IMG/VR virus record: IMGVR_UViG_3300021964_009400
Direction: 5' to 3' (one strand)
DNA from: a virus
Taxonomy: Duplodnaviria; Caudoviricetes
Length of the DNA stretch: 64,000 bases
Positions 7,901 to 64,000 of the stretch are shown here, in pieces (the stretch's first letter is position 1; the number at the start of each line of letters is the position of its first letter). The position numbers and the translations under genes were made by a program. Below the pieces are notes generated by a model, which was given only the letters and a program-made list of their open reading frames with translations, was not told the DNA's origin and ran no database searches.

Positions 7901-8068
7901 ACATCTGCACCTCTAGGGGGAACTAACTCAACAATTCACACTTTAGATGTTGATGGAACACAAGGTGGATTTGATAAGTGGTTCGTTTTAGGAGCAGGAG
8001 CAAATAATAGTGCAACCAATATGAGGTTAAAAGTAATACCAAGTAGTGGTTCAATAGGAGCATTTTAA
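1946..8068 (+). CDS. Giant fibre/adhesin-like virion protein with cadherin-like and about 210-aa Ig-like repeats
   Basis: 2040 aa; N-terminal SGS-rich repeats; cadherin-type motifs (NEAPIF, INENSSNGAVVGSISATDSEG, LNYEVDPLY); four FTSSNxAI..SGNL..DLSGS units spaced about 630 nt. Confidence 0.75.
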   Translation: MATLIQSKQIQGVVTASVIEGDFAVNAGSVNLAAASGVTGSFSGSFVGDGSGIQGIDYSQITNTPVFLPGNNITITSGSNIITITSTASGGGSNESLNSFTASYYTDSASFDSRIVGISSSGSGADWSTNLQNIPSGIVSGSIQVLGGTDIISSSAQISSLGFLTSSHTDISSLNDYTSSNDLRLTNLESTTSSLDTRITQLSNSTGSYETVGRGIISGSEQLPSGLFSGSLVAGENITINQDGDNFIISSSASGGGSVPAGTISGSQQITDLGFISSSHTDITSLNEYTSSTDERLSNIEAATGSYLTSETDSQTLSISGDQLTISSGNTVTIPTGSELPGGTISGSEQITALGFTSGSHSDVTSLNTFTSSIQTEVDVLSAATSSYLTSLDSGIISGSPQLTDLGFLSGSLLPGTNITINSGSDGFFISSSAGGGSTSVTVSDSAPGSPSEGDLWWKSDDGNLYVYYDGYWVISIDTTNALPSGVISGSQQITDLGFISSSHTVIDSLNAYTASNDIKISNLESTTSSLEQRIGQIESNTSSYESHSDLSSLNTFSSSIQTEVDGLSAQTSSYLTTLPSDLVSGSSQLTSSYDTRYALSGSGGSIPSGTVSGSSQLTASYDTRYQLSGSSIPFDGNRIVSQEKLPTMFTSSFNPGTSGSVVDFLNAIFYPNTQPSITSGNQTISEYSASSSPIFTLEATDPEGQSLTFGTASDYTDDLVRVASNGVVTLNALAESSSFNTDLVGGSHGHTFTATATDTFNSVVEKDITIFVTPNEAPIFRETSVSGNQITSVSSNLNESSTNGTLVKRIFFTDDESDTITIDSSSISPFDHFTITKYSTYVDITQNTGSLNYEVDPLYTFSISASDEHFQNGQDSDSISVLPISISVVDNATPTVSNQTLSSINENSSNGAVVGSISATDSEGNTITFTNFSLYRLELDNVLVSSSSYGGTSQLTDPHENPFQMDSSGQVTRKTGVYLNSDLINEYQYTVEVRDAYNNNSNPAIVTIPIDDDTPATLTDNFDNLFIKESETSGTTIKTTNYGSTTADFNSNQAGTFTSSNPAILINGSGNLSLNVDLSGSVTQSGETIDSTITFTNSFSTTTTQAISVEVVPNHHPSASFTLQNSNLNTNLATTNTNMVLVSITDTEGDTPYSASLSGTDAGKLNINYTNSNSSSLYIRANENLSAGTITYNLRVTDAYSEVSDYTGQTIPINQADTGTLGGDTTSYLIESTRSGSVLRDASGFEAGNASQLTVSYSGSDGTPSVQSFTSSNAAIDIDNSGNLTLAVDLSGSATSSGDTISSDITFSDNYGNVGSGSLTVNVFANSHPSASFTNNTGVYNTNQATSSALMVSLTITDEETDTPFSMSLSGTDASKFNIEPQNSNTSSVQLTAESDFAGGTYSYTASIFDQFGETSQYEREITIAEADLGTLTINGTFYIIESATSTSLIRTNSNGRTGTQGDLGVSYSPNYGSQVVQEFTSSNALIAVNSSGNLSVGTNISGSGNVSGDTINSNITWADQHGNVGSGSISVNVTTNNAPTTSSISTQFENTNQATGSSQLLELTISDEESDSIPNSGLTWSSYNSTYFVASVATPYMRLSVNNTSVPSGTYPWEVTLEDVHGFRTRVISGSLVISQADTGTLSGDTAVYAIESALSGSVLRDATGFGNGNASDVDVSYSPAYGSPTVQSFTSSNAAIAIDSSGAMTLAVDLSGSVTQSGDTVSTTITFDDQYGNVGSGSVTLNVFGNSSPAASFVSSSNYESDNATSGSDAGTLTVTDTESNSPFTITLAGTDGGKFDVSGSSSPFEIQPTGSLEAGTYTIDITVQDSYSESITLSSETIIVDQSSNTGEVYIYYSNYASDVNLSSAYNAVMGASTLNSDTPPEVTAYTANTASPYYKIKTSVGDSSYSLAGGKTMTLAATISGSDFPTIVSQSAAAMSWASGVQTVFVIPSGSSMTNVPTSMRDSTGGSTAGEYVLVEYADGTSAPLGGTNSTIHTLDVDGTQGGFDKWFVLGAGANNSATNMRLKVIPSSGSIGAF

Positions 8069-8084
8069 ATGATAGGAATATAAT

Positions 8085-8672
8085 ATGCCAAGTATAAGTT
8101 CAAAATTAAGTTTAACATCAGCAGCGATAACCGCGAACACGGCTCTTGCAGATGTAGATTATATTAGAGGTGCCTTTAAGGTATATTCATCCTCTGATTT
8201 ATCTGGTATCGCTCCGAGCTATTTTTCGGATGGACAGATAATCTATGTCGAAGATAGTGGTTCATTATATAAAGCTAATGTTCAACTTGCTAATTTTATT
8301 GATGTATTTGAAGATTCAGTATCTTTTTCAGCTTGGTCATTTGATAGTGGTTCATTTGTAAGTGCTTCTTTTGATGGAGTTGCAACACTAACATTCTTTG
8401 GACAAGATATTGAAGGTTCAAATAGAGTATCAATGTCTGTTGATTTATCTGCATTAACTGGTTCTGGTGGAGGTGGTGGAAGTGGTGATATTACTGCAGT
8501 ATTCACATCAGATGAAGGTATTATTGGTGGTTCATCAAGTGGAAATGTTGTACTTGAATTAGACCCAGGAGATGGTATTGTTTTAAATTCAAATGGTATA
8601 AACGTAAGTACAGGCTCTACACATTTTATTGGTGGAGTACAAAAAGTAGAAATTGATGGAGATACTTTTTAG
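8085..8672 (+). CDS. Virion structural/fibre-associated protein
   Basis: 195 aa, Gly-rich linker, C-terminal EIDGDTF motif shared with neighbouring fibre genes. Confidence 0.6.
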   Translation: MPSISSKLSLTSAAITANTALADVDYIRGAFKVYSSSDLSGIAPSYFSDGQIIYVEDSGSLYKANVQLANFIDVFEDSVSFSAWSFDSGSFVSASFDGVATLTFFGQDIEGSNRVSMSVDLSALTGSGGGGGSGDITAVFTSDEGIIGGSSSGNVVLELDPGDGIVLNSNGINVSTGSTHFIGGVQKVEIDGDTF

Positions 8673-8705
8673 TATTAAAAAGATATTTTCATATTTATAT
8701 AATAT

Positions 8706-8740
8706 AAACACTATATAGTGTTTTATAAGGGTATATACCC
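8706..8740. repeat. Tandem perfect palindromes AAACACTATATAGTGTTT (8706-8723) and GGGTATATACCC (8729-8740)
   Basis: Read directly; both are centred on TATATA; intergenic, after an ATATTTATAT motif at 8691. Confidence 0.8.
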
Positions 8741-8828
8741 GTTGAACAATATGTTTCAAACACTTTTTAAATAAAGGTTATATAAAAAAAAACAAATAAT
8801 TAATTAACAAAAAAGGAAAAAATTAAAA

Positions 8829-11435
8829 ATGGCACAAATTATTAAACACAGAAGAGGTAATCTCGAAGGTGTAGCAACGGCAACTACAAGAGCTGGTGAA
8901 CTCCTAGTAGTTACCGGTTCATCTGGTTTAGGAACAATCGCGAATGGTGATAGTTTAGTATTTGTTGGTATTGATGGTTCAACGGCTACACCTGTAAATA
9001 AAATATTACAAGGGACAACCGTACCAGATTTAACTGGTGGAGACTACAACACTCATGTTGATGGTATCCCTTTCTATGATACTGATGATAATAAACTTTA
9101 TATCCTTAACAAAGGTGGAAACATCGAAGTTAAAGCAAGTCCTGAAACAGGTGGAACAGGAATAGTATCAGGTTCATCACAAGTTTCTTTTACAGATTTA
9201 TCTAACTTATCAGCTGGTATAGTAAGTGGTTCAAGTCAAATAGTACTGAATGATGCAGATAAAACAGGATTTGATACTGATGATGTATCTGAAGGTACAA
9301 ACTTATATTTCACTAATGATAGAGTTAAGGCAAGATTAGATGCTGAAACCGTAATTAGTGGTTCATCACAAGTAGATGGTACAACAATTTCAAACAACAC
9401 AATTTCAATTGCTGGTAATTCAACTGCTTTAGGTGGTTCAATAACTGCAGCAAAAATTTTAGAAGGAACAGGAGTTCACTCTGGTTCAGCTCAAGTTGTT
9501 TCAGCACTTTCTAACCAAGCAACCGATTTCGGTACTGGTAGAGTAAGTGGTGATGACTTTGGTGATGTAGATGGAGGTTCAACTTTCACTGGTTCATTCG
9601 AAGGTGATGGTAGTGGATTAACTGGCTTAGCAACTGATTTAACAATTGGTGGTGATAATGGTTCTGACGATACAGTTTCACTTTCAAGTGGTACTCTTAA
9701 CATCGTTGGTACAAGTGGAGTAACTGAAACTACGGTAACTAATGACCAAATTGCAATCGATATAGTTGATAACCCAACACTTACTGGTAATGTTTCTATT
9801 ACTGGTAACTTAAATGTACAAGGTACAACTACAACAATTAACTCAAATACATTAGATGTAGGTGATAATATTATTAACTTAAACTATGGTGGTTCATCTG
9901 TATATGCAGGTTTATATGCAAATGATGCAACTGCACCAAGTACTGTTTCAGGTTCAATTCTTTGGGATGGAACAAATGACCAATGGATTGCAGGACAAAG
10001 TGGTTCAGAAGTTAAAATATTATTAGCAAATGGAGACGGTGTTGTATCTGGTTCTTCTCAAATCACATTCGCTGATTTAGCAAGTTTACCAGGTGGTATT
10101 GTATCTGGTTCAGGTCAAGTAGTATTACAAGATGCTGATAAAACTGGATTTACAGGTGCTAGTTCAATCACAACTTTAGGTACTATATCAACTGGTGTAT
10201 GGAATGGAACTGTTATTGATAAAGCATATTTAGATGATGAGGTATTAAATGCTTCATTAAATGCATATACTGCATCAAATGATACAAACCAATCTGCACA
10301 AGATACAAGATTAGACCAATTATCTGCATTTACAAGTTCTGTAAGTGGAGATTTTGTAGACCAATCTGAATTAGCAGCAGCAACAGGTGCACTTGAAACT
10401 GCAGATTCTGCTTTAGAAGCAAGAGCTGATAATTTAGAATCATATACAAGTTCATTTGCAAGTGATACTGTAACTTTAACTAACAAAACTATTGATGCTT
10501 CAAATAACACTATTTCAAACATTGCAAATTCATCACTTACTAACGATGGAATTACAATTGCAGGTGTTGATACTGATTTAGGTGGAGCAATTACTTATGA
10601 AACAATCGCAGGTGGTAGTGGAACAATATCTGGTTCAGCACAAGTTGTTTCTTCATTATCAAATCAGGCAACTGATTTCGGTACTGGTAGAATTAGTGGT
10701 GATGATATAGGTAATGTTGCAGGTGATACTACATTTACTGGTTCATTTAGTGGTGATGGTTCAAGCTTAACTGGTGTTGCTAGTACATTAGATATTAGTG
10801 GTTCAACTGGTAATGGAAGTGTTTCACTTAAAACACAAGATTTAAGTGTTGTAGGTACGGCAAATGAAATTGAAACTTCAGTTTCAGGTCAAACTATAAC
10901 AGTTGGATTACCAAATGATGTAACAATTGGTAACAACCTTACAGTAGGTGGTAATCTTGTAGTAGAAGGAACAACAACAACTGTTGATTCAACTCAAGTA
11001 ACAATTGGTGATAGAATCTTAGAACTTAACTACGCACAAGGTGCTGGAGATGCTGGTTTATTAGTAACTGACGTTGATGGTACAACTGTAAGTGGTTCGT
11101 TTTTATGGGATTCTGCAACTGATAAGTGGGTTGGTGGAGCATTAAGTTCTGAAAAAGAATTTGCGAGATTAGATTCTTCTCCAACTTCTAATACAGTTCT
11201 TAAGGCTGATGCTAATGGATTATTAGTTGATTCATTGATTACTGATGATGGAACAGATGTAACAATTAGTGGAACTGCAGAATTGAGAATCAATGCTGCA
11301 ACTGCTAACTCGTTTGTTTACTTTGATTCAAACAAATCACTTGAATCAGTTGCGGCTTCAACTGCTGGTGATGTAATTCAATGGAATGGTTCATCATTCG
11401 TTGCAAGTAACGAGATTGATGGAGGTACATTCTAA
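8829..11435 (+). CDS. Tail fibre-like protein, mosaic paralog 1
   Basis: 868 aa; MAQIIKHRRG N-terminus; repeated GIVSGSSQ and NIIxLNY..AGL modules; ends EIDGGTF. Confidence 0.75.
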   Translation: MAQIIKHRRGNLEGVATATTRAGELLVVTGSSGLGTIANGDSLVFVGIDGSTATPVNKILQGTTVPDLTGGDYNTHVDGIPFYDTDDNKLYILNKGGNIEVKASPETGGTGIVSGSSQVSFTDLSNLSAGIVSGSSQIVLNDADKTGFDTDDVSEGTNLYFTNDRVKARLDAETVISGSSQVDGTTISNNTISIAGNSTALGGSITAAKILEGTGVHSGSAQVVSALSNQATDFGTGRVSGDDFGDVDGGSTFTGSFEGDGSGLTGLATDLTIGGDNGSDDTVSLSSGTLNIVGTSGVTETTVTNDQIAIDIVDNPTLTGNVSITGNLNVQGTTTTINSNTLDVGDNIINLNYGGSSVYAGLYANDATAPSTVSGSILWDGTNDQWIAGQSGSEVKILLANGDGVVSGSSQITFADLASLPGGIVSGSGQVVLQDADKTGFTGASSITTLGTISTGVWNGTVIDKAYLDDEVLNASLNAYTASNDTNQSAQDTRLDQLSAFTSSVSGDFVDQSELAAATGALETADSALEARADNLESYTSSFASDTVTLTNKTIDASNNTISNIANSSLTNDGITIAGVDTDLGGAITYETIAGGSGTISGSAQVVSSLSNQATDFGTGRISGDDIGNVAGDTTFTGSFSGDGSSLTGVASTLDISGSTGNGSVSLKTQDLSVVGTANEIETSVSGQTITVGLPNDVTIGNNLTVGGNLVVEGTTTTVDSTQVTIGDRILELNYAQGAGDAGLLVTDVDGTTVSGSFLWDSATDKWVGGALSSEKEFARLDSSPTSNTVLKADANGLLVDSLITDDGTDVTISGTAELRINAATANSFVYFDSNKSLESVAASTAGDVIQWNGSSFVASNEIDGGTF

Positions 11436-14500: not shown

Positions 14501-15897
14501 GGTTAAGTGCAATTGAAGCGGATAGTGGTTCTTATTTAAAAACAGTTGATATATCTTCAGATACTAATTTAGCAGTATCAGATACATCAGAAGTTAATAT
14601 GATTTTAACTAATGATACACTAAGTGCAGAATTAATTGGTGGTGTTGTATCTGGTTCTTCACAAGTAATAGATATTTTAAGTTCAATAAACACTTACACA
14701 TCTTCTAATGATAATGATATAACAGAATTATTCTCATCAGCATCAGACCATGAAGGTAGAATAGATACACTTGAAGGGGATGTACATGAGGACCCATTAA
14801 CATTTAATGATACAACAAATGTTGATTTAATTAGAAGTGGCGATGTAATTACTGCAAATCTTAAAGGTGGTGTTGTATCTGGTTCTTCACAAATAAACTA
14901 TTCTGAATTAAGTGGAATAAATAATAACATAATATCAGCATCATCTGATACTTCACAAGTAGATATGATTATCAATGGTGGAAGTATTTCTGCAAATCTT
15001 AAAGGTGGTGTAGTTAGTGGTTCATCACAAATAACATTTGCTGATTTAAATGGATTACCTGGTGGTATTGTATCTGGTTCATCTCAACTTACTTCATCAT
15101 ATGATACAAGATATGTAAATGCAACTGGTAATGAAAGTATTAGTGGAAATAAAACATTTGATAATAATGTTGTAATTAGTGGAGATTTAAATGTTGCAGG
15201 AACAACTACATATACATCAACAAATAATGTAAATATTGGTGATAATATTTTAGAATTAAACTTTGGTGGTTCTGCTACAACAAGTGGTCTTTTAACTAAA
15301 GATTCAACAGGTGGTTCAACTACAAGTGGTTCTCTTTTATGGGATGCCACAAATGATTATTGGAAAGCAGGCAAATTTGGTTCAGAAGCAAAAATTTTAC
15401 TTTCTTTAGGAGATGGTGTAGTAAGTGGTTCAGACCAAATAACAAAAACTTTACAAGAAGTAACAACTGCTGGAAATACTACATCCAATGCAGTATCGAT
15501 TACAAACTCAACGGCTTCAACAACTAAAACGACTGGTGCTCTTGTAGTAACTGGTGGTGTTGGTGTTAGTGGAGCAGTAAATGTTGGTGGTGATGTTGTT
15601 GCTTTTGCATCTTCAGATGAAAGGTTAAAAGACAATATTCAACCAATTTCTAACCCATTAGAAAAAATAAATTTAATTTCTGGTAATAGTTTTGTATGGA
15701 ATGAAGAAAAACAAAATATTTATAAAGGTAAGGATTATGGAGTTATTGCTCAAGAAGTAGAAAAAATTCTTCCAGAATTGGTACAAACACGAGAAGATGG
15801 TTTTAAAGCAGTAAAATATGATAAATTAATATCACTACTTATAGAAAGTGTAAAAGAATTATCAAAAGAGGTTAAAGAATTAAAAGAAAAAAATTAG
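11599..15897 (+). CDS. Long tail fibre with coiled-coil repeats and a C-terminal peptidase S74 intramolecular chaperone
   Basis: 1432 aa; C-terminus ASSDERLKDNI...YGVIAQEVEKILPELV...VKYDKLISLLIESVKEL is the S74 signature. Confidence 0.85.
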   Translation: MAYTLKFRRGTSFTDPQLAEPFFNTNSDTLQVGDGSSNITLVKLGSNTAGDITFTGDVNADNLTLSGDANITGNIILGGNITLGDSGSDEIQLNASLSGSLIPDSPSVYDIGSSTRKYKNLYVESASIENPSFPGSGLVSTSQQIDDFGFLQVGGDGVFSGSSQVTLNDADKTGFTGASSITTVGTISTGTWQGTIIDKTYLDTEVLNTSLNSYTSSNDNNITNIHSTTASFEDRLDQLSTETSSITTEQAAQDVRLDQLSAETGSITTEQAAQDSRLDQLSTETGSITTEQAAQDSRLDQLSTETGSIENEQAAQDVRLNQLSTETGSIENEQAAQDSRLDNVEIFTSSIDINISNIHSTTASFESRLDLLSDVSHSHSNKTELDTINQNLSTTSDVTFNTGSFTGNMTITGDLTVLGSSTEISSTELRIEDKLITVASGSADSAAADGAGLEIDGAGKSLKWDHNTSQFVLDAKVSSSVGFKGEGGELTGIDTDQVTEAGNLYYTDARVKQKMTDEVAHSGSFLGTATTSNLDEGTNLYWTETRFSASLDDRGVLSGSAHINDSLNSYTASNDTTNTTQNSRLDQLSTETGSISTEQAAQDSRLTNIEANTGSYLTTVDISDDTNLAVSDTSTVNMTLSGDTLSADVIGGVVSGSEQLSGTFLSKLGDSVVSSSAFSSPSQGTIRATINGIDTDVDSGLQTSDSPSFEGISLTSVSEVDNVEYTALFISSSNLLGTRELGTAAFLHYSNSIADGNSQVIGTAQATKNYIDTKVIEAGAGDITEVNSGLGLSGGALSGSATLTLDTGSTHFLNGVSAAGAPEGTISGSSQITSLGFISSSDSTVSLNAYTASNDINITNIHSTTSSFDSRLDNIESFTSSLDDSYVTESELAAATGALETKDNEQDSRLSNIESFTSSLDDSYVTEAELAAATGALETKDNTQDTRLDQLSTETGSISTEQAVQDQRLSAIEADSGSYLKTVDISSDTNLAVSDTSEVNMILTNDTLSAELIGGVVSGSSQVIDILSSINTYTSSNDNDITELFSSASDHEGRIDTLEGDVHEDPLTFNDTTNVDLIRSGDVITANLKGGVVSGSSQINYSELSGINNNIISASSDTSQVDMIINGGSISANLKGGVVSGSSQITFADLNGLPGGIVSGSSQLTSSYDTRYVNATGNESISGNKTFDNNVVISGDLNVAGTTTYTSTNNVNIGDNILELNFGGSATTSGLLTKDSTGGSTTSGSLLWDATNDYWKAGKFGSEAKILLSLGDGVVSGSDQITKTLQEVTTAGNTTSNAVSITNSTASTTKTTGALVVTGGVGVSGAVNVGGDVVAFASSDERLKDNIQPISNPLEKINLISGNSFVWNEEKQNIYKGKDYGVIAQEVEKILPELVQTREDGFKAVKYDKLISLLIESVKELSKEVKELKEKN
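12301..12630 (+). repeat. In-frame 63-bp (21-aa) tandem repeat, about 5 copies, unit RLDQLSTETGSITTEQAAQDS
   Basis: Units at 12421-12483 and 12484-12546 are near-identical at DNA level; 21 aa = 3 heptads. Confidence 0.9.
14206..14433 (+). repeat. In-frame 114-bp (38-aa) duplication SRLxNIESFTSSLDDSYVTExELAAATGALETKDNxQD
   Basis: Copies start at 14206 and 14320. Confidence 0.85.
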
Positions 15898-38999: not shown

Positions 39000-39023
39000 A
39001 TTCAAAAAAAATTCGTATATTTG
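38992..39023 (+). promoter_or_regulatory. Bacteroidota sigma70-type promoter
   Basis: TTTG (38992)-N20-TATATTTG (39016). Confidence 0.75.
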
Positions 39024-56264: not shown

Positions 56265-56435
56265 ATGGCAAATTCACAAGAACTATTTGAACAAATTAAA
56301 GATTTATTCGTTCAATTTGAGGATGAACACAATGGTTCATCTAAAGCAGCTAAATCGAGAGCTAGAAAACACATCGGTGAAATCAAAAAGTTAGTAACAG
56401 ATTACAGAAAAGCGTCAGTAGAAGAAAACAAATAA
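56265..56435 (+). CDS. Histone H1-like (Hc1-type) small basic protein, not in the supplied track (56 aa)
   Basis: MANSQELFEQIKDLFVQFEDEHNGSSKAAKSRARKHIGEIKKLVTDYRKASVEENK; KAAxxRARK..E.KKL..YRKAS matches the Bacteroidota histone-H1-like family as recalled; AAGGA RBS. Confidence 0.75.
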   Translation: MANSQELFEQIKDLFVQFEDEHNGSSKAAKSRARKHIGEIKKLVTDYRKASVEENK

Positions 56436-59258: not shown

Positions 59259-59522
59259 ATGATAACAGTAAAAAAATTCTACGCAGATTGGTGTGGTCCA
59301 TGTAAAATGTTAACACCAATTATGGAACAAGTTAAAGGAAAGTTTTCAACAATCAATTTTGAAGATATTGATATTGATTCACAATTTGAAGTTGCACAAA
59401 AGTATTATGTAAGGTCAGTTCCTACGGTAATTATCGAAAAAAATGGTGAAGAAATTCAAAGATTCGCAGGATTACAATCAGAATTGGCATACACAAATGC
59501 ATTAAATGAAATCAACTCGTAA
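59259..59522 (+). CDS. trxA: Thioredoxin
   Basis: FYADWCGPCKML, VRSVPT. Confidence 0.95.
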   Translation: MITVKKFYADWCGPCKMLTPIMEQVKGKFSTINFEDIDIDSQFEVAQKYYVRSVPTVIIEKNGEEIQRFAGLQSELAYTNALNEINS

Positions 59523-59694
59523 TATTCTTAGAGGAGAATCGCATCCAAGAGCAAAACTAAACAATCAACAAGTATATCAAATACGAGATTTATACGAAAA
59601 AGGATTTAGTTCTAATATAATTGCAAGGAATTTTCATATAAGTCCTTGGAATGTAGAAGAAATTGGTAAAAGAAAAACTTGGAAACACTTGTAA
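59506..59694 (+). CDS. Stand-alone HNH-endonuclease-type C-terminal HTH domain
   Basis: GESHPRAKLNNQQVYQIR..IARNFHIS..KRKTWKHL. Confidence 0.7.
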   Translation: MKSTRNILRGESHPRAKLNNQQVYQIRDLYEKGFSSNIIARNFHISPWNVEEIGKRKTWKHL

Positions 59695-59719
59695 AATTCA
59701 AATATTTTTCGTATATTTG
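59688..59719 (+). promoter_or_regulatory. Bacteroidota sigma70-type promoter heading the modification operon
   Basis: CTTG (59688)-N20-TATATTTG (59712). Confidence 0.75.
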
Positions 59720-59741
59720 TATAAACTTAAATTAATAATAT

Positions 59742-59978
59742 ATGGCAGGAATAAAATTTATCCACACAGATGATAAAGAAGTAGTAATAAAAGGGACTCC
59801 AAATGTTCCAATTAACAAAAGTAAAAAACTTAATAGTATAGATGGTTCAGAAAGTTTATTTTATATTGAAACTGAAACGGCATTTAAAATGAAATTAGAT
59901 TCAAAAGTAGATTTTTCTAAAAAACATCCACAAGATGATAACTTTTCGTTAATTACGATTCCAATTAACAGAATTTAA
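59742..59978 (+). CDS. Hypothetical protein, first gene of the modification operon
   Basis: 78 aa directly after the promoter and 1 nt before the TS-like gene. Confidence 0.7.
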   Translation: MAGIKFIHTDDKEVVIKGTPNVPINKSKKLNSIDGSESLFYIETETAFKMKLDSKVDFSKKHPQDDNFSLITIPINRI

Positions 59979-59979
59979 T

Positions 59980-60678
59980 ATGACGGTTATAGAAGCAACC
60001 TCTCCAGGTGATGCTTGGGTAAAAGTATCGAAGCATTTATTAGAAAATGGAGTAAAGGTAGGAAATCTTACAGAAGAACTCAATGTAGTTACTGAAATTA
60101 CAGAATTCAAATCAGATGATTGGTTTGATGGTCACTTCAGAGAAATAATGGGTGATGATAGAATTGATTTTGCTAAGACAGTAACCTTTCTTAAACCAGA
60201 ACAAAAGAAATCAGATAATCCATTTTTTGAAGCAGAAAAAGGATTGGATTATAAATTCATTAAAGACCATTATCATCAATCTTATTGGGGTAGAATGGTT
60301 AGTTGGAGAGGTGAATTCAATCAAGTTGAAAATGTAATTAAGATTTTAAGTAGAGGACAAGCAGTAAAAAGATGTGAACTTATTATCTTTGACCCTACTA
60401 AAGATGCAAGGAACCCTTATTCTCAACCTTGTATGTGTATGATTGATTTAAAACCAAGAAATGGTAAATTATATCTCACATCAATACTTCGTTCAAACAG
60501 AGTATCGAAATCAGGTTATGCAGATTATACTGCATTAACAGAAATGGGACATTTCCTTGCTGAACAAAGTGGATTAGAATTAGGAAAAGTAACTACACTT
60601 GCTTGTTCATGTCACATCGGTGATATGGATAATGAAAAAAAGAAAACAATTAAATTGTTAGAAGTATTAGGTAAATGA
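59980..60678 (+). CDS. Thymidylate synthase superfamily enzyme with a dCMP-hydroxymethylase-like signature
   Basis: Catalytic QPCMC; KLYLTSILRSNRVSKSGYADY aligns to RSxD...N/D; CSCHI. Confidence 0.75.
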   Translation: MTVIEATSPGDAWVKVSKHLLENGVKVGNLTEELNVVTEITEFKSDDWFDGHFREIMGDDRIDFAKTVTFLKPEQKKSDNPFFEAEKGLDYKFIKDHYHQSYWGRMVSWRGEFNQVENVIKILSRGQAVKRCELIIFDPTKDARNPYSQPCMCMIDLKPRNGKLYLTSILRSNRVSKSGYADYTALTEMGHFLAEQSGLELGKVTTLACSCHIGDMDNEKKKTIKLLEVLGK

Positions 60679-61601
60679 AAGTACACAAATCATTTAAGTT
60701 TGAACCCAATCCAAAATGGGCATGGGATTTCAAAAAACTTTTATTAAATAGATTATCAGAAATACCAGATGATTATTCATTATCATTTTCTGCTGGTATA
60801 GATTCATCTATGTTATTATATGGTTTGATGGAGTTAGGTAAGAAACCATCTCAGTTACTTACATTTCAAGTAGAGAATCACGATACAAATGATTTAATTT
60901 ATTCTCGTAAGATTGCAAAAGGATATGGTATTCCATTACAAATTGTAAACATACCTAAAATAAATAAAGAAAGTGCATCAAAAATAATAAAAGATGTTAT
61001 TGATAGAATTGGAATATCAAGAAAAATAGATATTCAATGTTGTTATGCATATTGGTATATGTTGCATTATATTTCGACTCAACATTTAGTTGCTGGATTA
61101 TATGAGGATGTTATATATGAAACGAATGCCAAATTAAGTATTAAATATAGAGATATGTTACGAGGTAATGTTACACGAGAAGAATTTGATAAACATTATA
61201 ATGACCATCGTAGAATGTGTTATGAAGATAAAAATTTTAATGGTAATGTTCATAATCATGTATCAATTAGAAAATACATAAATTCTTTTGGAGTTACTTT
61301 AGATACACCATTGCAGACAGAAAGTATTTACAAACATTTTCAGAATGTAAATTATGAACAAACTAATTTTAAATTTGAAGATGATAAAATAAAAGAAAAG
61401 AAAAAATGGTTTGTAACTGATGTATTATTTAAAGATGAATTTGAAAGATTTGGTAATGCAAAAAACAAATCTAACTTTCATACGAAAAAAGAAAAAGGAG
61501 ATATAAATACACTTCATTGTGAAATATTTGGAGTTGAAAAGAAACAACTTATATCTCATTACAATAAAATTAAAAACGAAGTGCAACACGAATGGTTCTA
61601 A
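60675..61601 (+). CDS. Asparagine-synthase-like PP-loop ATP pyrophosphatase (no glutaminase domain)
   Basis: SLSFSAGIDSSML (SGGxDSS-type), LLTFQV..DLIYSRKIAK..GIPLQIV. Confidence 0.7.
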   Translation: MKVHKSFKFEPNPKWAWDFKKLLLNRLSEIPDDYSLSFSAGIDSSMLLYGLMELGKKPSQLLTFQVENHDTNDLIYSRKIAKGYGIPLQIVNIPKINKESASKIIKDVIDRIGISRKIDIQCCYAYWYMLHYISTQHLVAGLYEDVIYETNAKLSIKYRDMLRGNVTREEFDKHYNDHRRMCYEDKNFNGNVHNHVSIRKYINSFGVTLDTPLQTESIYKHFQNVNYEQTNFKFEDDKIKEKKKWFVTDVLFKDEFERFGNAKNKSNFHTKKEKGDINTLHCEIFGVEKKQLISHYNKIKNEVQHEWF

Positions 61602-62437
61602 CTCCGATAGAAGAATACAAAATAAAAGGAAAGACAGTTCATGTCAAAAGAGATGATTTAGTTGGGGATGGTGTGAACTATCCACGATGGGCTAAGATTG
61701 AAGGTATTAGAAAGATTATAGAATCTGATTATATCGATAAATCAAAACCACTAACACATCTCTCAGTATATGGAAGTTGGACTGGTTGGACATTATCTAA
61801 GATGTGTAAAGAGTATGGTATTGAATTTATTTCATCTTATCCAAACTCTAAAACATATCCACCTCAGATATTAGAAATCATCAAAGGTAATGGTGCAACA
61901 TTGAATCCAATGAAACCAAATATGATGAAACTACTTGAAAATAAATTGGGTGGTATTGCAAAAAAGAATGGTTGGCAACAATTACCGTATGCTTTCAATC
62001 ACCCAGCATATATAAACTATATGCAAGATAGAATGAAACAAGTTTTGGAAAAAGAAGATTTTGACCATCTTGTTGTATCAATTGGAAGTGGTGTAACTGC
62101 ATCTGGTTTGATTAGAGAATTTTTACAATATAAAGATTGGAAAGATATTCTAAAAAATAAAAGACAAGTTCATACAGTTACAATGTCATCTCTTACATCT
62201 ACTCAAAAGATTTTAAATGAAAACAAAGCAGGTGATTTAAATAATATCCACATTTATAAATCAGAATATGATTTTGATGATTTTATGGATGAAGTTACAG
62301 ATTACCCATTTGATATGAATGAATTTTGGGAGCGTAAAATGTGGTGGTGGTTAGAAAATAACATAGAGAAATTAGATGGTAAGATTCTATTTTGGAATAT
62401 AGGTGGTTCTTATAGAAAATCATTAAACTTAAAATAA
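61592..62437 (+). CDS. PLP-dependent fold-type-II enzyme (ACC deaminase / D-cysteine desulfhydrase / TrpB family)
   Basis: VHVKRDDL..AKIEG (Schiff-base Lys region), DHLVVSIGSGVTASGL phosphate loop, LFWNIGG. Confidence 0.8.
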   Translation: MVLTPIEEYKIKGKTVHVKRDDLVGDGVNYPRWAKIEGIRKIIESDYIDKSKPLTHLSVYGSWTGWTLSKMCKEYGIEFISSYPNSKTYPPQILEIIKGNGATLNPMKPNMMKLLENKLGGIAKKNGWQQLPYAFNHPAYINYMQDRMKQVLEKEDFDHLVVSIGSGVTASGLIREFLQYKDWKDILKNKRQVHTVTMSSLTSTQKILNENKAGDLNNIHIYKSEYDFDDFMDEVTDYPFDMNEFWERKMWWWLENNIEKLDGKILFWNIGGSYRKSLNLK

Positions 62438-63684
62438 TGCACGGAGGAGAAGATTACTTTGAACAATTTTATGGAATGAAACCTTATTTAGAAATAAATG
62501 AGGAAGAATGGCAAAACATAAAAGATATGTACACCAAAGATGAAGTAAAGGAAAAACTTGCAGATTTATGCATGACATATCCTCTACCTTATCAGACAGA
62601 AAAATATACAGAAGATGATTGTAGAGCAGATTATTTTAAACTAAAAGGAATTCGTTGGAACGAATTATTGATAGAAGGAAAAGAATGGTTTCAAAGACAA
62701 TCACGAGAATCTAAATACCCACTAACTTATGAAGGTAAACCTCTTTTCTTTAAAAGATACAATGTAGGAAATCTTTCAAGTAATTGGTGGCAAGAAAAAA
62801 ATAGATGGTCAATATGTTCGAGTGGTTATCCAGGTCCAGCAAGGACATGGAGAACAAGAGCATTTATGGTTACTTTAATGGGTGCTGCATATAGTTTGAA
62901 GTTAGATAAAATTGGAAAGAAAGAATTAAGATTAATGATTTCACTTCGTAAATATATTGCATCTCAACACAAACCAAATGTCACTAAATGTTTAACAGAA
63001 TTTTTTGGTTCTGAGACCATGTTAGATTTTTCCGCTGGTTGGGGAGACCGTTTATCGGGTGCTTGTGCTAGTTCAACTGTAAAACATTATGTTGGAATAG
63101 ACCCTCGTAAAGAAAATCATCCTATTTATGAACAACAAAGAGATTTTTATCAAAAACACACTTCTTTCTTTGAAAATCCAACAAAGGTAGATTTACATCA
63201 ATCACCAGCAGAAGATTTTAATTATTGGGAATACCAAGATTATTTTGATTTGGTTTTCACTTCTCCTCCTTATTTTAATGTGGAACGATATGGTGAAGAT
63301 GATACTCAAAGTTGGATAAGATATAAATCAATCCAAGCATGGAATGAATATTTTCTTCACAAAGCATTAGAAAAAATTATACCAACACTTAAAAAAGGTG
63401 GTAAGATAGCAATCAATATTGCAGATGTATATACAAGTGGAGGTGGTGGTGGAAAAGATTGGAAAGAAATAACACAACCAATGTGTGAGTTTTTAGAATC
63501 TAAAGGATTAACATATAAAGGATGTATCGGTATGGAAATGGCAAAAAGACCAAATAGTGGTGGGGCAGGTACTGTAAAAGCATCAGAACACAATGAAAAA
63601 CAATATAAAGAAGAAACCTTGAAAAGTTCAGAAGAAAATCAAGATAAAACTTTTTGTGAACCAATTTGGATATTTGAAAAATGA
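62437..63684 (+). CDS. SAM-dependent DNA amino-methyltransferase (SPPY; N4-C or N6-A)
   Basis: MLDFSAGWGDRL, YVGIDP, FDLVFTSPPYFNVERY, LKKGGKIAINI. Confidence 0.85.
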   Translation: MHGGEDYFEQFYGMKPYLEINEEEWQNIKDMYTKDEVKEKLADLCMTYPLPYQTEKYTEDDCRADYFKLKGIRWNELLIEGKEWFQRQSRESKYPLTYEGKPLFFKRYNVGNLSSNWWQEKNRWSICSSGYPGPARTWRTRAFMVTLMGAAYSLKLDKIGKKELRLMISLRKYIASQHKPNVTKCLTEFFGSETMLDFSAGWGDRLSGACASSTVKHYVGIDPRKENHPIYEQQRDFYQKHTSFFENPTKVDLHQSPAEDFNYWEYQDYFDLVFTSPPYFNVERYGEDDTQSWIRYKSIQAWNEYFLHKALEKIIPTLKKGGKIAINIADVYTSGGGGGKDWKEITQPMCEFLESKGLTYKGCIGMEMAKRPNSGGAGTVKASEHNEKQYKEETLKSSEENQDKTFCEPIWIFEK

Positions 63685-63857
63685 TAGAATTTTTTAGACA
63701 TATATTTGGATTATGTGGTGAACACTTTCACCCTAATATTTGGACTGCAATGGCAAGTTCACCTTTTATCGTAGCAACAATACATTATATTAAATGTAAA
63801 TGTGGTGGTTGGTTTACTCATAAAAAAGATTGTAAAAATTTGGATAATTCAAAATAA
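63681..63857 (+). CDS. Small Cys/His-rich protein, not in the supplied track (58 aa)
   Basis: MIEFFRHIFGLCGEHFHPNIWTAMASSPFIVATIHYIKCKCGGWFTHKKDCKNLDNSK; ATGA overlap with the MTase stop. Confidence 0.55.
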   Translation: MIEFFRHIFGLCGEHFHPNIWTAMASSPFIVATIHYIKCKCGGWFTHKKDCKNLDNSK

Positions 63858-63870
63858 TTTCGTATATTTG
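63839..63870 (+). promoter_or_regulatory. Bacteroidota sigma70-type promoter
   Basis: TTTG (63839)-N20-TATATTTG (63863). Confidence 0.8.
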
Positions 63871-63875
63871 TACTT

Positions 63876-64000
63876 ATGTATCAAAACATTTATTACCAGA
63901 GAGAAAAAAATCTAATCCACTTGTGGGATGACCAAAGAGGATATTCATCTTTTCCTTATACACGATATGCATACGAACCTGCTGAAAGAGGAGAATATAC
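63876..64000 (+). CDS. 5' end of a gene running off the window (possibly a family B DNA polymerase)
   Basis: MYQNIYYQREKNLIHLWDDQRGYSSFPYTRYAYEP..; the PolB assignment is recalled resemblance only. Confidence 0.4.
   Translation, partial: MYQNIYYQREKNLIHLWDDQRGYSSFPYTRYAYEPAERGEY

What the first reader, a model, noticed from the sequence alone, without database searches (positions are those of the whole stretch)
59688..63857. Candidate new DNA base-hypermodification operon: TS-like + asparagine-synthase-like + PLP enzyme + amino-MTase
Seen: one host-type promoter (59688-59719) heads six genes with abutting or overlapping stops and starts (60675 ATGA, 61592 overlap, 62437 TAATG, 63681 ATGA). 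They lie directly after nrdB-nrdA-trx and before a probable polymerase. Established: phages build modified nucleotides with thymidylate synthase homologues and elaborate them with ATP-dependent ligases and PLP enzymes (PLP enzymes act in 5-aminoethyl-uracil-type pathways). Inference: the TS-like enzyme functionalises C5 of a pyrimidine dNMP, the PP-loop enzyme adenylates and amidates or ligates, the PLP fold-II enzyme supplies or remodels an amino-acid-derived group, and the SPPY enzyme methylates. I do not recognise this four-enzyme combination as a described pathway.
Basis: partly seen in the sequence, partly recalled or inferred. Interest (0 to 1): 0.92.

Follow-up and report, generated by a model that had tools for sequence, protein, structure and literature searches.

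The report
Candidate new phage DNA hypermodification island
An uncultured marine jumbo phage carries a tightly packed gene block that joins relatives of two enzymes known to decorate bases in phage DNA with an unusual thymidylate-synthase-like enzyme, but lacks every enzyme known to start those pathways, so it probably makes a modified DNA base that has not been described.

Summary
Six co-directional, abutting or overlapping ORFs (59742-63857) lie between nrdB-nrdA-trx and a B-family DNA polymerase. A 14-nt promoter-like motif brackets them; it occurs 4 times in the window against 0.09 expected.

Family assignments:
- g2 is a short thymidylate-synthase-fold enzyme with the catalytic Cys and a family-wide signature (ThyA D169 to Arg, N177 to Asp).
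- g3 is a glutaminase-less asparagine-synthetase-fold ligase. Its nearest homologues in cultured phages are CmoY enzymes, which join an amine to 5-carboxymethylcytosine in DNA.
- g4 is a full-length homologue of phage M6 gp52, the PLP decarboxylase of amino-acid:base conjugates in DNA.
- g5 is a generic viral SPPY amino-methyltransferase.

In 39 related viral loci with enough flank, the g4 homologue has an AsnB-family gene beside it in 36 and a g5-like MTase in 35. It has either the TS-like gene (24) or a 2-hydroxyacid-dehydrogenase-like gene (14), never both. A complete 276-kb relative has no 5-hmdU kinase, amino-acid:DNA transferase, CmoA or C5-methyltransferase.

Best reading (about 0.6): a DNA base hypermodification island of a new composition. 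The final base is unknown. This scan found the block only on this genome.

The parts
59708..59721 (+). Upstream copy of the repeated promoter-like 14-mer TTCGTATATTTGTA.
   Evidence: 4 copies in the window against 0.09 expected, all on the + strand; the three exact copies each lie about 20 nt ahead of an ORF start. Promoter function is inferred.
59742..59978 (+). g1, a 78-aa ORF of no known family. It is an accessory gene, present only in some relatives.
   Evidence: only a weak Ppnp hit, E 0.086; found at 59-64% identity in a minority of loci.
59980..60678 (+). g2, a short (232 aa) thymidylate-synthase-fold enzyme. The catalytic Cys is kept (SQPCM). The signature RSNRVSKSGYAD puts Arg at ThyA D169 and Asp at N177 (cytosine type). 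Ser replaces L143 and Gly replaces Y209.
   Evidence: PF00303 2.8e-6, TIGR03283 1.4e-21 below cut-off. AF2 model pLDDT 80. Foldseek top hits are the phage HY126 dCMP hydroxylase AfhB (9iqu, 9iqc) and the CMP hydroxymethylase MilA. Alignment with T4 gp42, RB69 gp48, M6 gp58 and ThyA. The signature is kept down to 45% identity.
60675..61601 (+). g3, a 308-aa AMP-forming amide ligase with the asparagine-synthetase C-domain fold. It has a PP-loop (SFSAGIDSS) and no glutaminase domain, and is CmoY-like.
   Evidence: AF2 model pLDDT 89. Foldseek top hits are ASNS/AsnB, carbapenam synthetase and beta-lactam synthetase. hhalign against S-B43 CmoY: probability 95%, 227 columns. BLASTP 3e-12 to SpCmoY and 3e-20 to the Staphylococcus phage CmoY-like protein.
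61592..62437 (+). g4, a 281-aa fold-type II PLP enzyme of the M6 gp52 / ViI gp226 family. K35 is invariant and matches M6 K36. A GSG phosphate loop and the family motifs PFxxNxFW, KxWxWL and FWNIGG are present.
   Evidence: phrog_7093 7e-19, full length. tblastn to M6 gp52 1e-14 over 95% of the length. Alignments A1 and A5. Function of gp52 and gp226: PMC8989533.
62437..63684 (+). g5, a 415-aa amino-methyltransferase. Motif I is DFSAGWGDR and motif IV is SPPY, in gamma-class order, after an N-terminal domain of about 170 aa with no assigned function.
   Evidence: PF01555 1.4e-5, 25.6 bits, just under the 26.7 cut-off. Atlas neighbours are viral N6_N4 MTases. 4339 representative homologues. A g5-like gene lies within 4 kb of the PLP gene in 35 of 39 loci.
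63681..63857 (+). g6, a 58-aa Cys-rich ORF of no known family. It is an accessory gene, conserved only in the closest relatives.
   Evidence: 72% identity in L006 and L021 only.
63859..63872 (+). Downstream copy of the promoter-like 14-mer. It heads the DNA polymerase gene and marks the end of the block.
63876..64000 (+). Start of the B-family DNA polymerase gene (context only).
   Evidence: PolB Pfam hits in relatives.
59506..59694 (+). 62-aa HTH remnant of an HNH homing endonuclease, between trx and the block (context). It marks a site where cassettes are exchanged.
   Evidence: phrog_20467 2.6e-7. Its position varies among relatives.

Best explanation
The block is a DNA base hypermodification island of a composition not described before.

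Shown by homology and synteny:
- It pairs a CmoY-type ATP-dependent amide ligase (g3) with a gp52/gp226-type PLP enzyme (g4). In relatives a glutamine-dependent AsnB takes the place of g3.
- Both families have characterised members that act on side chains attached to pyrimidines in phage DNA.
- The pair is almost always accompanied by an amino-MTase-like gene, and by either a dCMP-type thymidylate-synthase homologue (g2) or a 2-hydroxyacid-dehydrogenase-like gene.

Inferred mechanism:
1. g2 adds its Cys to C6 of dCMP. The Asp at the N177 position points to a cytosine substrate. It then functionalises C5. The invariant Arg where ThyA has the folate-contacting Asp suggests a changed cofactor or co-substrate.
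2. The modified nucleotide enters DNA.
3. A side chain carrying an alpha-amino acid or a carboxyl group is built on it.
4. g3 adenylates a carboxyl group of that side chain and joins it to an amine. The AsnB1 of relatives would instead use glutamine-derived ammonia.
5. g4 forms a Schiff base with the free alpha-amine of the appended amino acid. It either decarboxylates it, as gp52 and gp226 do, or installs it by beta-replacement, the typical chemistry of its fold.
6. g5 most likely adds an ordinary N4-C or N6-A methyl group, and may or may not belong to the pathway.

The expected end product is a cytosine with an amide- and/or amine-bearing C5 side chain that shields the DNA from host nucleases. 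The order of steps and the identity of the base are not known.
For: 1. g4 aligns end to end with M6 gp52, including the predicted PLP lysine and the family-specific C-terminal motifs. gp52 and ViI gp226 are shown decarboxylases of base-linked amino acids in DNA (PMC8989533).
2. The nearest homologues of g3 among 50,697 phage records are CmoY of Synechococcus phage S-B43 and its Staphylococcus phage counterpart. Each sits between CmoA-like and C5-MTase genes. CmoY adenylates 5-carboxymethylcytosine in DNA and ligates glycine. The same paper reports a second ligase cluster that carries a glutaminase domain (PMC12783734). Here the same dichotomy appears at one genomic slot: g3 or the 501-aa AsnB1, which starts MCGI.
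3. Conserved neighbourhood. Among 39 viral loci with at least 4 kb on each side, an AsnB-family gene is within 3 kb in 36 and an MTase within 4 kb in 35. TS-like or HacDH is present in 38 and they never occur together. PLP identity ranges from 90% down to 45%.
4. Location. The block lies in the nucleotide-metabolism and replication module next to polB. In T4-like relatives it lies between gene 43 and uvsX, the slot that holds gene 42 and beta-gt in T4 and the arabinosyl-5hoC genes in RB69.
5. A complete relative has a canonical ThyA (316 bits) and a dCMP deaminase as well, so g2 is an extra TS paralogue.
6. g2 keeps the Cys and the cytosine-type Asp, and carries a family-wide RS[NM]R..D signature unlike folate-dependent enzymes (RSND or RSxD) or flavin 5-hydroxylases (RSQN) (PMC13326640).
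7. The genes are translationally coupled and bracketed by a repeated promoter-like motif.
Against: - No chemical or experimental datum exists for any of these proteins.
- The known enzymes that install a handle are all absent from a complete relative: 5-HMUDK, ADDT, CmoA and C5-MTase. It is therefore unclear how a carboxyl or amino-acid side chain would reach the base.
- That relative has no recognisable dCTPase, dUTPase or MazG. T4-style full replacement of dC is not supported.
- AsnB1 and AsnB2 pass NCBI's general asparagine-synthase model (284 and 294 bits against a 267 cut-off). They keep the SGEGSDE motif and could simply make asparagine.
- The TS-like gene is missing from 14 of 39 loci, so its link to the pair is not obligatory.
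- g5 belongs to a huge generic family.
- Amidation and decarboxylation of one and the same carboxylate are mutually exclusive, so at least one enzyme must act differently from its characterised relative.
Confidence: 0.6

Rival explanations
1. A mosaic of unrelated genes in a recombination hot spot. The TS-like enzyme is an ordinary nucleotide-pool enzyme (a dCMP hydroxymethylase, methylase or hydroxylase acting alone). The AsnB-type gene is an auxiliary metabolic gene that makes asparagine. The PLP enzyme acts on free amino acids. The MTase is a plain anti-restriction methylase. No joint pathway exists.
For: - AsnB1 and AsnB2 exceed the TIGR01536 cut-off and keep the AsnB catalytic motifs.
- The slot is plastic. 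There is a homing-endonuclease remnant, GroEL or a 525-aa gene is inserted between g4 and g5 in relatives, and g3 and AsnB1 are swapped.
- g5 belongs to a generic family.
- The jumbo relative carries other auxiliary genes such as GroEL and a 902-aa outer-membrane-receptor-like ORF.
Against: - The AsnB-type and PLP genes stay adjacent across three different architectures and down to 45% PLP identity (36 of 39 loci). This is not expected for unrelated genes in a hot spot.
- g3 is nearer to the DNA ligase CmoY than to AsnB.
- The family of g4 has only DNA-acting characterised members.
- TS-like and HacDH are strictly alternative, 0 of 39 loci with both, which looks like module exchange within one system.
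Confidence: 0.2
2. The handle is installed on an exocyclic amine by the MTase-like enzyme, not at C5. g5 and its paralogues would transfer a carboxylated group from a SAM derivative to N4 of cytosine or N6 of adenine. That group would be carboxymethyl from carboxy-SAM, or 3-amino-3-carboxypropyl from SAM. The AsnB/CmoY-type enzyme then amidates it and the PLP enzyme remodels it. This parallels CmoX-CmoY, diphthamide synthesis, or the carbamoylmethyl-adenine made by phage Mu Mom. The TS-like gene would be a bystander.
For: - MTase-like genes are the most constant companions of the AsnB-PLP pair (35 of 39 loci). In the T4-like architecture two paralogues are interleaved with the PLP, HacDH and AsnB2 genes.
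- An N6_N4 MTase also sits just upstream of the most distant g4 homologue, L025 at 27% identity.
- The TS-like gene is dispensable in 14 loci.
- The known CmoX-CmoY logic pairs a SAM-fold transferase with an AsnB-fold ligase (PMC12783734).
- Class I MTase-fold aminocarboxypropyl and carboxymethyl transferases exist (Tyw2, CmoB). This is my own knowledge and was not tested.
Against: - No CmoA homologue is present in the complete relative.
- g5 has ordinary motif I and an SPPY motif IV, and its family is vast and mostly unlinked to PLP or AsnB genes.
- Nothing in the sequence was shown to select a carboxylated cofactor.
Confidence: 0.12
3. The genes make a small molecule, such as an unusual amino-acid amide or a polyamine-like amine. 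It would be used free, for example for DNA packaging or host takeover, or attached to DNA by an unidentified transferase. The genes would not act on DNA themselves.
For: - A dehydrogenase plus a PLP decarboxylase plus an amidotransferase is a typical small-molecule toolkit, as in the carboxyspermidine route (my own knowledge).
- The HacDH variant has an NAD-binding GGGRIG motif.
- No DNA-binding domain was detected in g3 or g4.
Against: - The characterised relatives of both g3 (CmoY) and g4 (gp52, gp226) take DNA-borne substrates.
- No ADDT-type transferase is present to attach a free amine to DNA.
- A TS-fold enzyme has no known role in amino-acid or polyamine synthesis.
Confidence: 0.08

Closest known systems
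Thymidine hypermodification pathway of Pseudomonas phage M6 and Salmonella phage ViI: dUMP hydroxymethylase, 5-hmdU DNA kinase, amino-acid:DNA transferase, radical-SAM isomerase (M6 only), and the PLP decarboxylase gp52 / gp226 (PMC8989533, PMC5889632)
   Same: g4 is a full-length homologue of gp52 with the same lysine and family motifs. A TS-family gene and the DNA polymerase gene lie nearby, as noted for those clusters.
   Different: The complete relative has no 5-HMUDK, ADDT or radical-SAM enzyme, and neither do any of the 39 loci. The TS homologue is of cytosine type (Asp at N177), not uracil type. An AsnB/CmoY-type ligase is present, which the characterised thymidine pathways lack.
CmoA-CmoX-CmoY system of Synechococcus phage S-B43: 5-carboxymethylcytosine and its glycine amide (PMC12783734)
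   Same: g3 is a CmoY-family glutaminase-less AMP-forming ligase (hhalign probability 95%). Relatives carry the glutaminase-bearing form, as in the second ligase cluster of that paper. Both lie in the replication and nucleotide-metabolism region.
   Different: The complete relative has no CmoA and no C5-MTase/CmoX. A TS-fold enzyme and a gp52-type PLP enzyme accompany the ligase here, and neither is part of the CmoAXY system. Identity to SpCmoY is only 23%.
Cytosine-specific TS-family enzymes: T4 gp42 dCMP hydroxymethylase, MilA CMP hydroxymethylase, and the flavin-dependent 5-hydroxy-dCMP synthases RB69 gp48 / HY126 AfhB (PMC13326640)
   Same: Same fold. The catalytic Cys, the phosphate-binding Arg-Ser and the Asp at the N177 position are shared. 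g2 is short, like AfhB.
   Different: Position D169 is Arg. It is Asp in folate enzymes and Asn in the 5-hydroxylases. The L143 position is Ser, not Asp or Glu. Y209 is Gly. Identity is only 17-23%.
E. coli asparagine synthetase B and its fold relatives beta-lactam synthetase and carbapenam synthetase
   Same: The g3 model superposes on their synthetase domains (TM about 0.6). The PP-loop is present, and a Glu aligns with E348.
   Different: g3 has no N-terminal glutaminase domain. The SGEGSDE motif is degraded to IYETNAK. g3 scores far below the family cut-offs.

Membership tests
Thymidylate synthase / dCMP hydroxymethylase superfamily (PF00303) | TS alpha/beta fold | tested here: met
   AF2 model pLDDT 80. 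Foldseek probability 1.0 to AfhB, MilA and many ThyA entries. PF00303 27.1 bits against a 24.3 cut-off.
Thymidylate synthase / dCMP hydroxymethylase superfamily (PF00303) | Catalytic Cys (ThyA C146) and phosphate-binding Arg-Ser (R166, S167) | tested here: met
   C151 in SQPCM and R171-S172 align with those of T4 gp42, RB69 gp48, M6 gp58 and a canonical ThyA. They are invariant in the family.
Folate-dependent TS and hydroxymethylases | Asp at ThyA position 169, which contacts the pterin | tested here: not met
   Arg in all 29 distinct family members down to 45% identity.
Flavin-dependent 5-hydroxy-dCMP synthases (RB69 gp48, AfhB) | Asn at ThyA position 169, the D169N signature (PMC13326640) | tested here: not met
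   g2 has RSNR where RB69 gp48 has RSQN. AfhB is nonetheless the top structural match.
Cytosine-specific TS homologues | Asp in place of ThyA N177 | tested here: met
   D182 is invariant and aligns with T4 gp42 D179 and the RB69 gp48 Asp.
CmoY-type DNA carboxyl amide ligases (PMC12783734) | AsnB synthetase-domain fold with a PP-loop and no glutaminase domain, and sequence kinship to SpCmoY | tested here: met
   Foldseek to the AsnB, CarA and beta-LS C-domains. SAGIDS loop. hhalign probability 95% over 227 columns and BLASTP 3e-12 to SpCmoY.
CmoY-type DNA carboxyl amide ligases (PMC12783734) | Genomic association with CmoA (Cx-SAM synthase) and CmoX (C5 carboxymethyltransferase) | tested here: not met
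   No PF00145 hit and no homologue of S-B43 CmoA in the complete relative G001 or in G000 and G002.
CmoY-type DNA carboxyl amide ligases (PMC12783734) | ATP-dependent ligation of an amine to a carboxylated base in DNA | not testable with these tools
   Needs an enzyme assay.
Glutamine-dependent asparagine synthetase (AsnB) | N-terminal Ntn glutaminase domain with Cys2 | tested here: not met
   g3 starts at the synthetase domain. The AsnB1 that replaces it in relatives does have MCGI.
gp52 / gp226 PLP decarboxylases of base-linked amino acids | Full-length homology, the Schiff-base Lys (M6 K36) and a Gly-rich phosphate loop | tested here: met
   tblastn 1e-14 with 95% coverage. K35 is invariant and aligned with M6 K36. 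GSG loop and C-terminal FWNIGG motif are present. phrog_7093 7e-19.
gp52 / gp226 PLP decarboxylases of base-linked amino acids | Co-occurrence with 5-hmdU DNA kinase and amino-acid:DNA transferase | tested here: not met
   PF18748 and PF18724 are absent from G001, G000 and G002. 0 of 39 loci have them.
gp52 / gp226 PLP decarboxylases of base-linked amino acids | Decarboxylation of a DNA-borne alpha-amino acid | not testable with these tools
   Needs an enzyme assay.
N6-A / N4-C DNA amino-methyltransferases (PF01555) | SAM motif I (FxGxG-like) and motif IV (D/N/S)PP(Y/F) | tested here: met
   DFSAGWGDR and SPPY are read directly in the sequence. PF01555 scores 25.6 bits, just under the 26.7 cut-off. 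Atlas neighbours are viral N6_N4 MTases.

The most novel reading that the evidence does not exclude
The island defines a third, undescribed route to hypermodified cytosine. The Arg-for-Asp TS homologue would not use folate in the usual way. It would install a carboxyl- or amino-acid-bearing substituent at C5 of dCMP, or a hydroxyl or hydroxymethyl group onto which the fold-II PLP enzyme adds an alanyl group by beta-replacement. The CmoY/AsnB-type enzyme then converts the carboxylate into an amide. The result would be a new amide- or amine-bearing cytosine in the DNA of abundant marine and estuarine phages. Swapping the ligase, or swapping TS for the dehydrogenase, would yield a family of related bases.
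Probability: 0.2. Interest if true: 0.9.

Novelty: new variant of a known kind. Interest (0 to 1): 0.78.

Why it matters
Phage DNA hypermodifications determine resistance to restriction enzymes and CRISPR nucleases, and they supply new enzymes for DNA chemistry. Two handle-and-decorate logics are characterised for amino-acid or amide decoration: 5-hydroxymethyl, then phosphate, then amino acid; and 5-carboxymethyl, then amide.

This island recombines one downstream enzyme from each logic with a TS-family enzyme that has a new active-site signature, and it lacks both known handle-installing steps. If it works as inferred, it predicts a new natural DNA base, probably a small family of them given the swapped cassettes.

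The phages that carry it occur in estuary, marine and salt-marsh metagenomes from 18 studies. The g4 homologue is found on at least 182 viral contig stretches.

The island also gives a clean experimental design. The natural variants (g3 versus AsnB1, TS-like versus dehydrogenase-like) should give predictable mass differences.

Tried and rejected
- Sigma-70 promoter and terminator scan: no better than shuffles. The repeated 14-mer was used instead.
- DNA-level search of cultured phages: only a 76-nt match to a Bacteroides phage.
- Sequence search of the PDB: nothing for g5 or for the 353-aa gene of the T4-like architecture. g4 gave only weak cysteine-synthase and ACC-deaminase hits.
- Pfam, PHROGs and NCBIfam gave nothing for g1, g6, the 353-aa gene or the 525-aa gene.
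- Whether AsnB1 and AsnB2 keep the aspartate-binding residues of E. coli AsnB: the SGEGSDE, Arg/Asn and Lys motifs are kept, but one Asp that I recalled as substrate-binding is not. I could not verify the residue roles, so this is inconclusive.
- Sequencing runs: all holders are stored as contigs, not raw reads. No base-modification signal could be looked for. The RNA-library contigs covering parts of g1, g3 and g4 do not prove transcription. The 4.1-4.5-kb 'joints' between 59.3-59.7 kb and 63.8 kb have 22-26-nt sides. Those at 59721/59723 abut the upstream promoter-motif copy, and all end 8-26 nt before the downstream copy. I take them for assembly artefacts.
- Clamp-riding idea. AsnB1 and g3 end in conserved aromatic tails (K-W-[IVL], E-W-F) that recall the polymerase tail KFFSF. 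A complex-prediction job with the g3 tail and the sliding clamp of relative G001 gave no verdict. It counts neither for nor against.
- The contigs of the T4-like architecture could not be searched whole because the records are not held. Whether they carry a TS-like gene elsewhere is unknown.
- Rejected: a QueC or 7-deazaguanine role for g3. The QueC hits cover only the PP-loop, and the fold match is to the AsnB family.

Full report
**Observation**

- g1 59742-59978.
- g2 59980-60678.
- g3 60675-61601 (ATGA overlap with g2).
- g4 61592-62437 (10-nt overlap with g3).
- g5 62437-63684 (TAATG).
- g6 63681-63857 (ATGA).

Upstream are a 5'-3' exonuclease, a DnaB-type helicase, an Hc1-like 56-aa gene, NrdB, NrdA and thioredoxin. 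A 62-aa remnant of an HNH/HTH homing endonuclease follows. Downstream, the ORF starting at 63876 matches the start of the 838-aa B-family polymerase of a relative.

A generic sigma-70 scan is uninformative. The 14-mer TTCGTATATTTGTA at 59708 recurs at 39012, 54709 and 63859, always on the + strand; the three exact copies each lie about 20 nt ahead of an ORF start. That is 4 copies against 0.09 expected. The block is therefore bracketed by two copies of a repeated promoter-like element.

The window is part of a 66.5-kb IMG/VR fragment estimated at 33% complete. Relatives reach 276 kb, and one of them, G001, is rated complete. GC content here is about 30%.

**What each gene is**

g2 (232 aa) has the thymidylate-synthase fold.
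- Scores: PF00303 is just over its cut-off. The methanogen-type TS model TIGR03283 gives 1.4e-21 but is far below its cut-off.
- Structure: the AlphaFold model (pLDDT 80) matches best the phage HY126 dCMP hydroxylase AfhB and the CMP hydroxymethylase MilA, then classical TS.
- Active site: aligned with T4 gp42, RB69 gp48, M6 gp58 and a canonical ThyA, it keeps the catalytic Cys and the Arg-Ser phosphate site. It has Asp where ThyA has N177, the established cytosine-specificity determinant (PMC13326640).
- Differences: it has Arg where ThyA has the folate-contacting D169, Ser at the L143 position and Gly at Y209.
- Signature: RS[NM]R[VI]SKSGYAD is kept in all 29 distinct family members down to 45% identity. 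Folate-dependent hydroxymethylases read RSND here. The flavin-dependent 5-hydroxy-dCMP synthases read RSQN, the D169N signature. g2 fits neither class.
- Paralogy: the complete relative also encodes a canonical ThyA (316 bits) and a dCMP deaminase. The TS-like gene is thus an extra paralogue.

g3 (308 aa) has a PP-loop (SFSAGIDSS).
- Structure: its model (pLDDT 89) superposes on the synthetase domains of human and E. coli asparagine synthetase, carbapenam synthetase and beta-lactam synthetase. It has no glutaminase domain.
- Family size: only 34 clusters in 5.8 billion proteins.
- Nearest cultured relatives: among 50,697 phage records the only hits are a Staphylococcus phage gene and the 'putative asparagine synthase' of Synechococcus phages S-B43, S-B05 and RB11-B. 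In S-B43 and in the Staphylococcus phage, that gene sits between a CmoA-like methyltransferase-domain gene and a DNA cytosine methyltransferase. This is CmoY.
- Function of CmoY: it is the ATP-dependent ligase that adenylates 5-carboxymethylcytosine in DNA and joins glycine to it (PMC12783734).
- Strength of the match: pairwise E-values are 3e-12 and 3e-20. The g3 family profile matches SpCmoY at 95% probability over 227 columns. It matches the neighbouring AsnB1 of relatives at 73% over 101 columns.

g4 (281 aa) is a fold-type II PLP enzyme.
- Nearest cultured relatives: 60 phage records, all YuA/M6-like Pseudomonas, Bordetella and Stenotrophomonas phages, at 25-28% identity over 95% of the length. 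The M6 hit is gp52.
- Function of the family: gp52 is the PLP-dependent decarboxylase that turns C-alpha-glycinylthymidine in DNA into 5-(2-aminoethyl)uridine. Its homologue ViI gp226 decarboxylates O-serinylthymidine (PMC8989533).
- Conserved residues: g4 K35 is invariant in 25 family members and aligns with M6 K36, the predicted Schiff-base lysine. The GSG loop and the C-terminal motifs are shared.

g5 (415 aa) carries SAM motif I and an SPPY motif IV, in gamma-class order. It scores just under the PF01555 cut-off. Its neighbours in the protein atlas are viral N6_N4 methylases. Its family has 4339 representatives, so it is a generic viral amino-methyltransferase.

g1 and g6 have no family and are only patchily conserved.

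**Surroundings and relatives**

In close relatives the flanks are 83-95% identical, but the slot between g2 and g4 holds one of two genes. One is g3. The other is a 501-aa asparagine synthetase with an intact MCGI glutaminase start. The two align only weakly (22%). Both forms occur in one metagenome (loose end at 60669), and in one contig they are adjacent.

This mirrors the report that CmoX-linked ligases fall into a glutaminase-less cluster (CmoY) and a glutaminase-bearing cluster.

GroEL or a 525-aa unknown gene can be inserted between g4 and g5.

A profile-guided scan found 182 viral stretches encoding g4 relatives. Among the 39 loci with at least 4 kb on each side:

| Feature near the g4 homologue | Loci (of 39) |
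|---|---|
| AsnB-family gene within 3 kb | 36 |
| g5-like MTase within 4 kb | 35 |
| TS-like gene | 24 |
| D-2-hydroxyacid-dehydrogenase-like gene | 14 |
| TS-like or dehydrogenase-like | 38 |
| Both together | 0 |
| ADDT, 5-HMUDK or the M6 radical-SAM enzyme | 0 |

In T4-like marine contigs the order is gp44, regA, polB, MTase, a 353-aa unknown gene, PLP, dehydrogenase-like, AsnB, MazG, uvsX. The island therefore occupies the gene 43-uvsX interval. In T4 that interval holds gene 42 and beta-glucosyltransferase. In RB69 it holds the 5-hydroxycytosine arabinosylation genes.

The complete relative G001 lacks all of the following: PF18724 (ADDT), PF18748 (5-HMUDK), a C5-methyltransferase, a CmoA homologue, MazG and both dUTPase families.

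**Interpretation**

Two of the four enzymes belong to small families whose only characterised members work on side chains of pyrimidines in phage DNA. The two genes are nearly inseparable across three architectures. The island sits where related phages keep their DNA-modification genes. This makes a DNA base hypermodification function the best-supported reading (about 0.6).

The TS homologue most likely acts on dCMP, because of its Asp and Cys. It most likely provides the C5 functional group. Its invariant Arg at the folate-contacting position argues for an altered cofactor or co-substrate.

The ligase must adenylate a carboxylate. The glutaminase-bearing variant implies conversion to a primary amide. 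g3 would use free ammonia or another amine.

The PLP enzyme needs a free alpha-amine. Amidation and decarboxylation cannot both consume the same carboxylate. So either the side chain has two carboxyl groups, or g4 installs the amino-acid moiety by beta-replacement rather than removing CO2, or the two enzymes act on different intermediates.

These steps are inference. The handle-installing step is the main gap, because all known installers are absent.

The strict TS-or-dehydrogenase alternation suggests cassette variants that give related but different bases. I cannot derive the chemistry.

**Rivals**

- A mosaic of unrelated auxiliary genes (0.2). This is favoured by AsnB1 and AsnB2 passing the general asparagine-synthase model and by the plasticity of the slot. 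The conserved adjacency argues against it.
- Handle installation on an exocyclic amine by the MTase-like enzymes, with the TS as a bystander (0.12). This is suggested by the constancy of MTase neighbours, including in the most distant homologue, L025.
- Small-molecule synthesis (0.08).

**Comparison with what is known, and novelty**

The island shares g4 with the M6/ViI thymidine pathway and g3 with the CmoAXY cytosine pathway. It fails the association criteria of both. Its TS homologue fails the active-site criteria of both folate-dependent and flavin-dependent branches.

Literature searches found no description of this combination. Lee et al. only remark that amidoligases and amidotransferases co-occur with thymidine hypermodification genes.

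I class it as a new variant of a known kind, namely phage DNA hypermodification gene clusters. The scan's earlier notes hold this block only for this same genome. Other notes concern ordinary ViI/M6-type decarboxylases.

**Limits**

There are no experimental data. No raw reads were available to look for modification signals. One complex prediction gave no verdict.

Noticed in passing
window 60669-61601, and loci L012, L013, L057: The slot between the TS-like and PLP genes holds either the 308-aa CmoY-like g3 or a 501-aa glutaminase-bearing AsnB, in phages whose flanks are 83-95% identical. A DNA contig in run X3 leaves the window at 60669 into a sequence that starts the AsnB form (it translates as M-C-G-I-V-A-T), so both forms coexist in one sample.
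   Followed up: partly
loci L006 9767-11386 and L029 6928-8505: In some relatives a GroEL (Cpn60, 7e-70) or a 525-aa protein of no known family is inserted between the PLP gene and the MTase.
   Followed up: partly
locus L006 13244-14713: A 489-aa protein with a GmrSD N-terminal domain plus an HNH domain lies between the g6 homologue and the polymerase in one relative. [quoted passage not shown] A phage-borne copy could target rival modified DNA.
   Followed up: no
window 59506-59694: A 62-aa ORF matches only the C-terminal HTH part of HNH homing endonucleases (phrog_20467, 2.6e-7) and overlaps the end of trx. It is probably a decayed homing endonuclease at a cassette-exchange site. Its order relative to g1 differs among relatives.
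   Followed up: partly
window 39012, 54709, 59708, 63859: The 14-mer TTCGTATATTTGTA is repeated on the + strand; the three exact copies each end about 20 nt before an ORF start, and the 39012 copy (one mismatch) ends about 150 nt before the next listed ORF. It is a likely phage early or middle promoter with a Bacteroidota-type -7 element. Longer matches of 35-49 nt around it occur elsewhere on the contig.
   Followed up: partly
C-termini of g3 (window 61590-61598), AsnB1 (L057 about 9990-10001) and PolB (L057 about 14610-14619): g3 homologues end in H-x-W-F. The AsnB1 proteins end in G-[IF]-x-K-W-[IVL]. Cellular AsnB has no such tail. The phage polymerase ends in K-F-F-S-F. This may be a shared clamp-binding peptide; the complex prediction gave no verdict.
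   Followed up: partly
window 56265-56435: A 56-aa ORF matches the histone H1-like protein Hc1 (PF07432, 1.7e-10), between the helicase and nrdB.
   Followed up: partly
L057 15418-17055, 17278-19986 and 20054-20599 (relative G001): Past the polymerase and a 237-aa sliding clamp lie three genes: a second SPPY MTase of 545 aa (31% identical to g5), a 902-aa ORF that looks like an outer-membrane TonB-dependent receptor, and a 181-aa P-loop (GGPGIGKS) kinase-like protein. The P-loop protein could be a nucleotide kinase relevant to modified dNMPs. It did not reach the 5-HMUDK model.
   Followed up: no
locus L025 6556-8816: The most distant g4 homologue found (27% identity) also has an N6_N4 DNA methylase gene about 470 nt upstream (ORF 6556-7506 against 7977-8816). 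It has no AsnB, TS, ADDT or kinase gene within 8 kb.
   Followed up: partly
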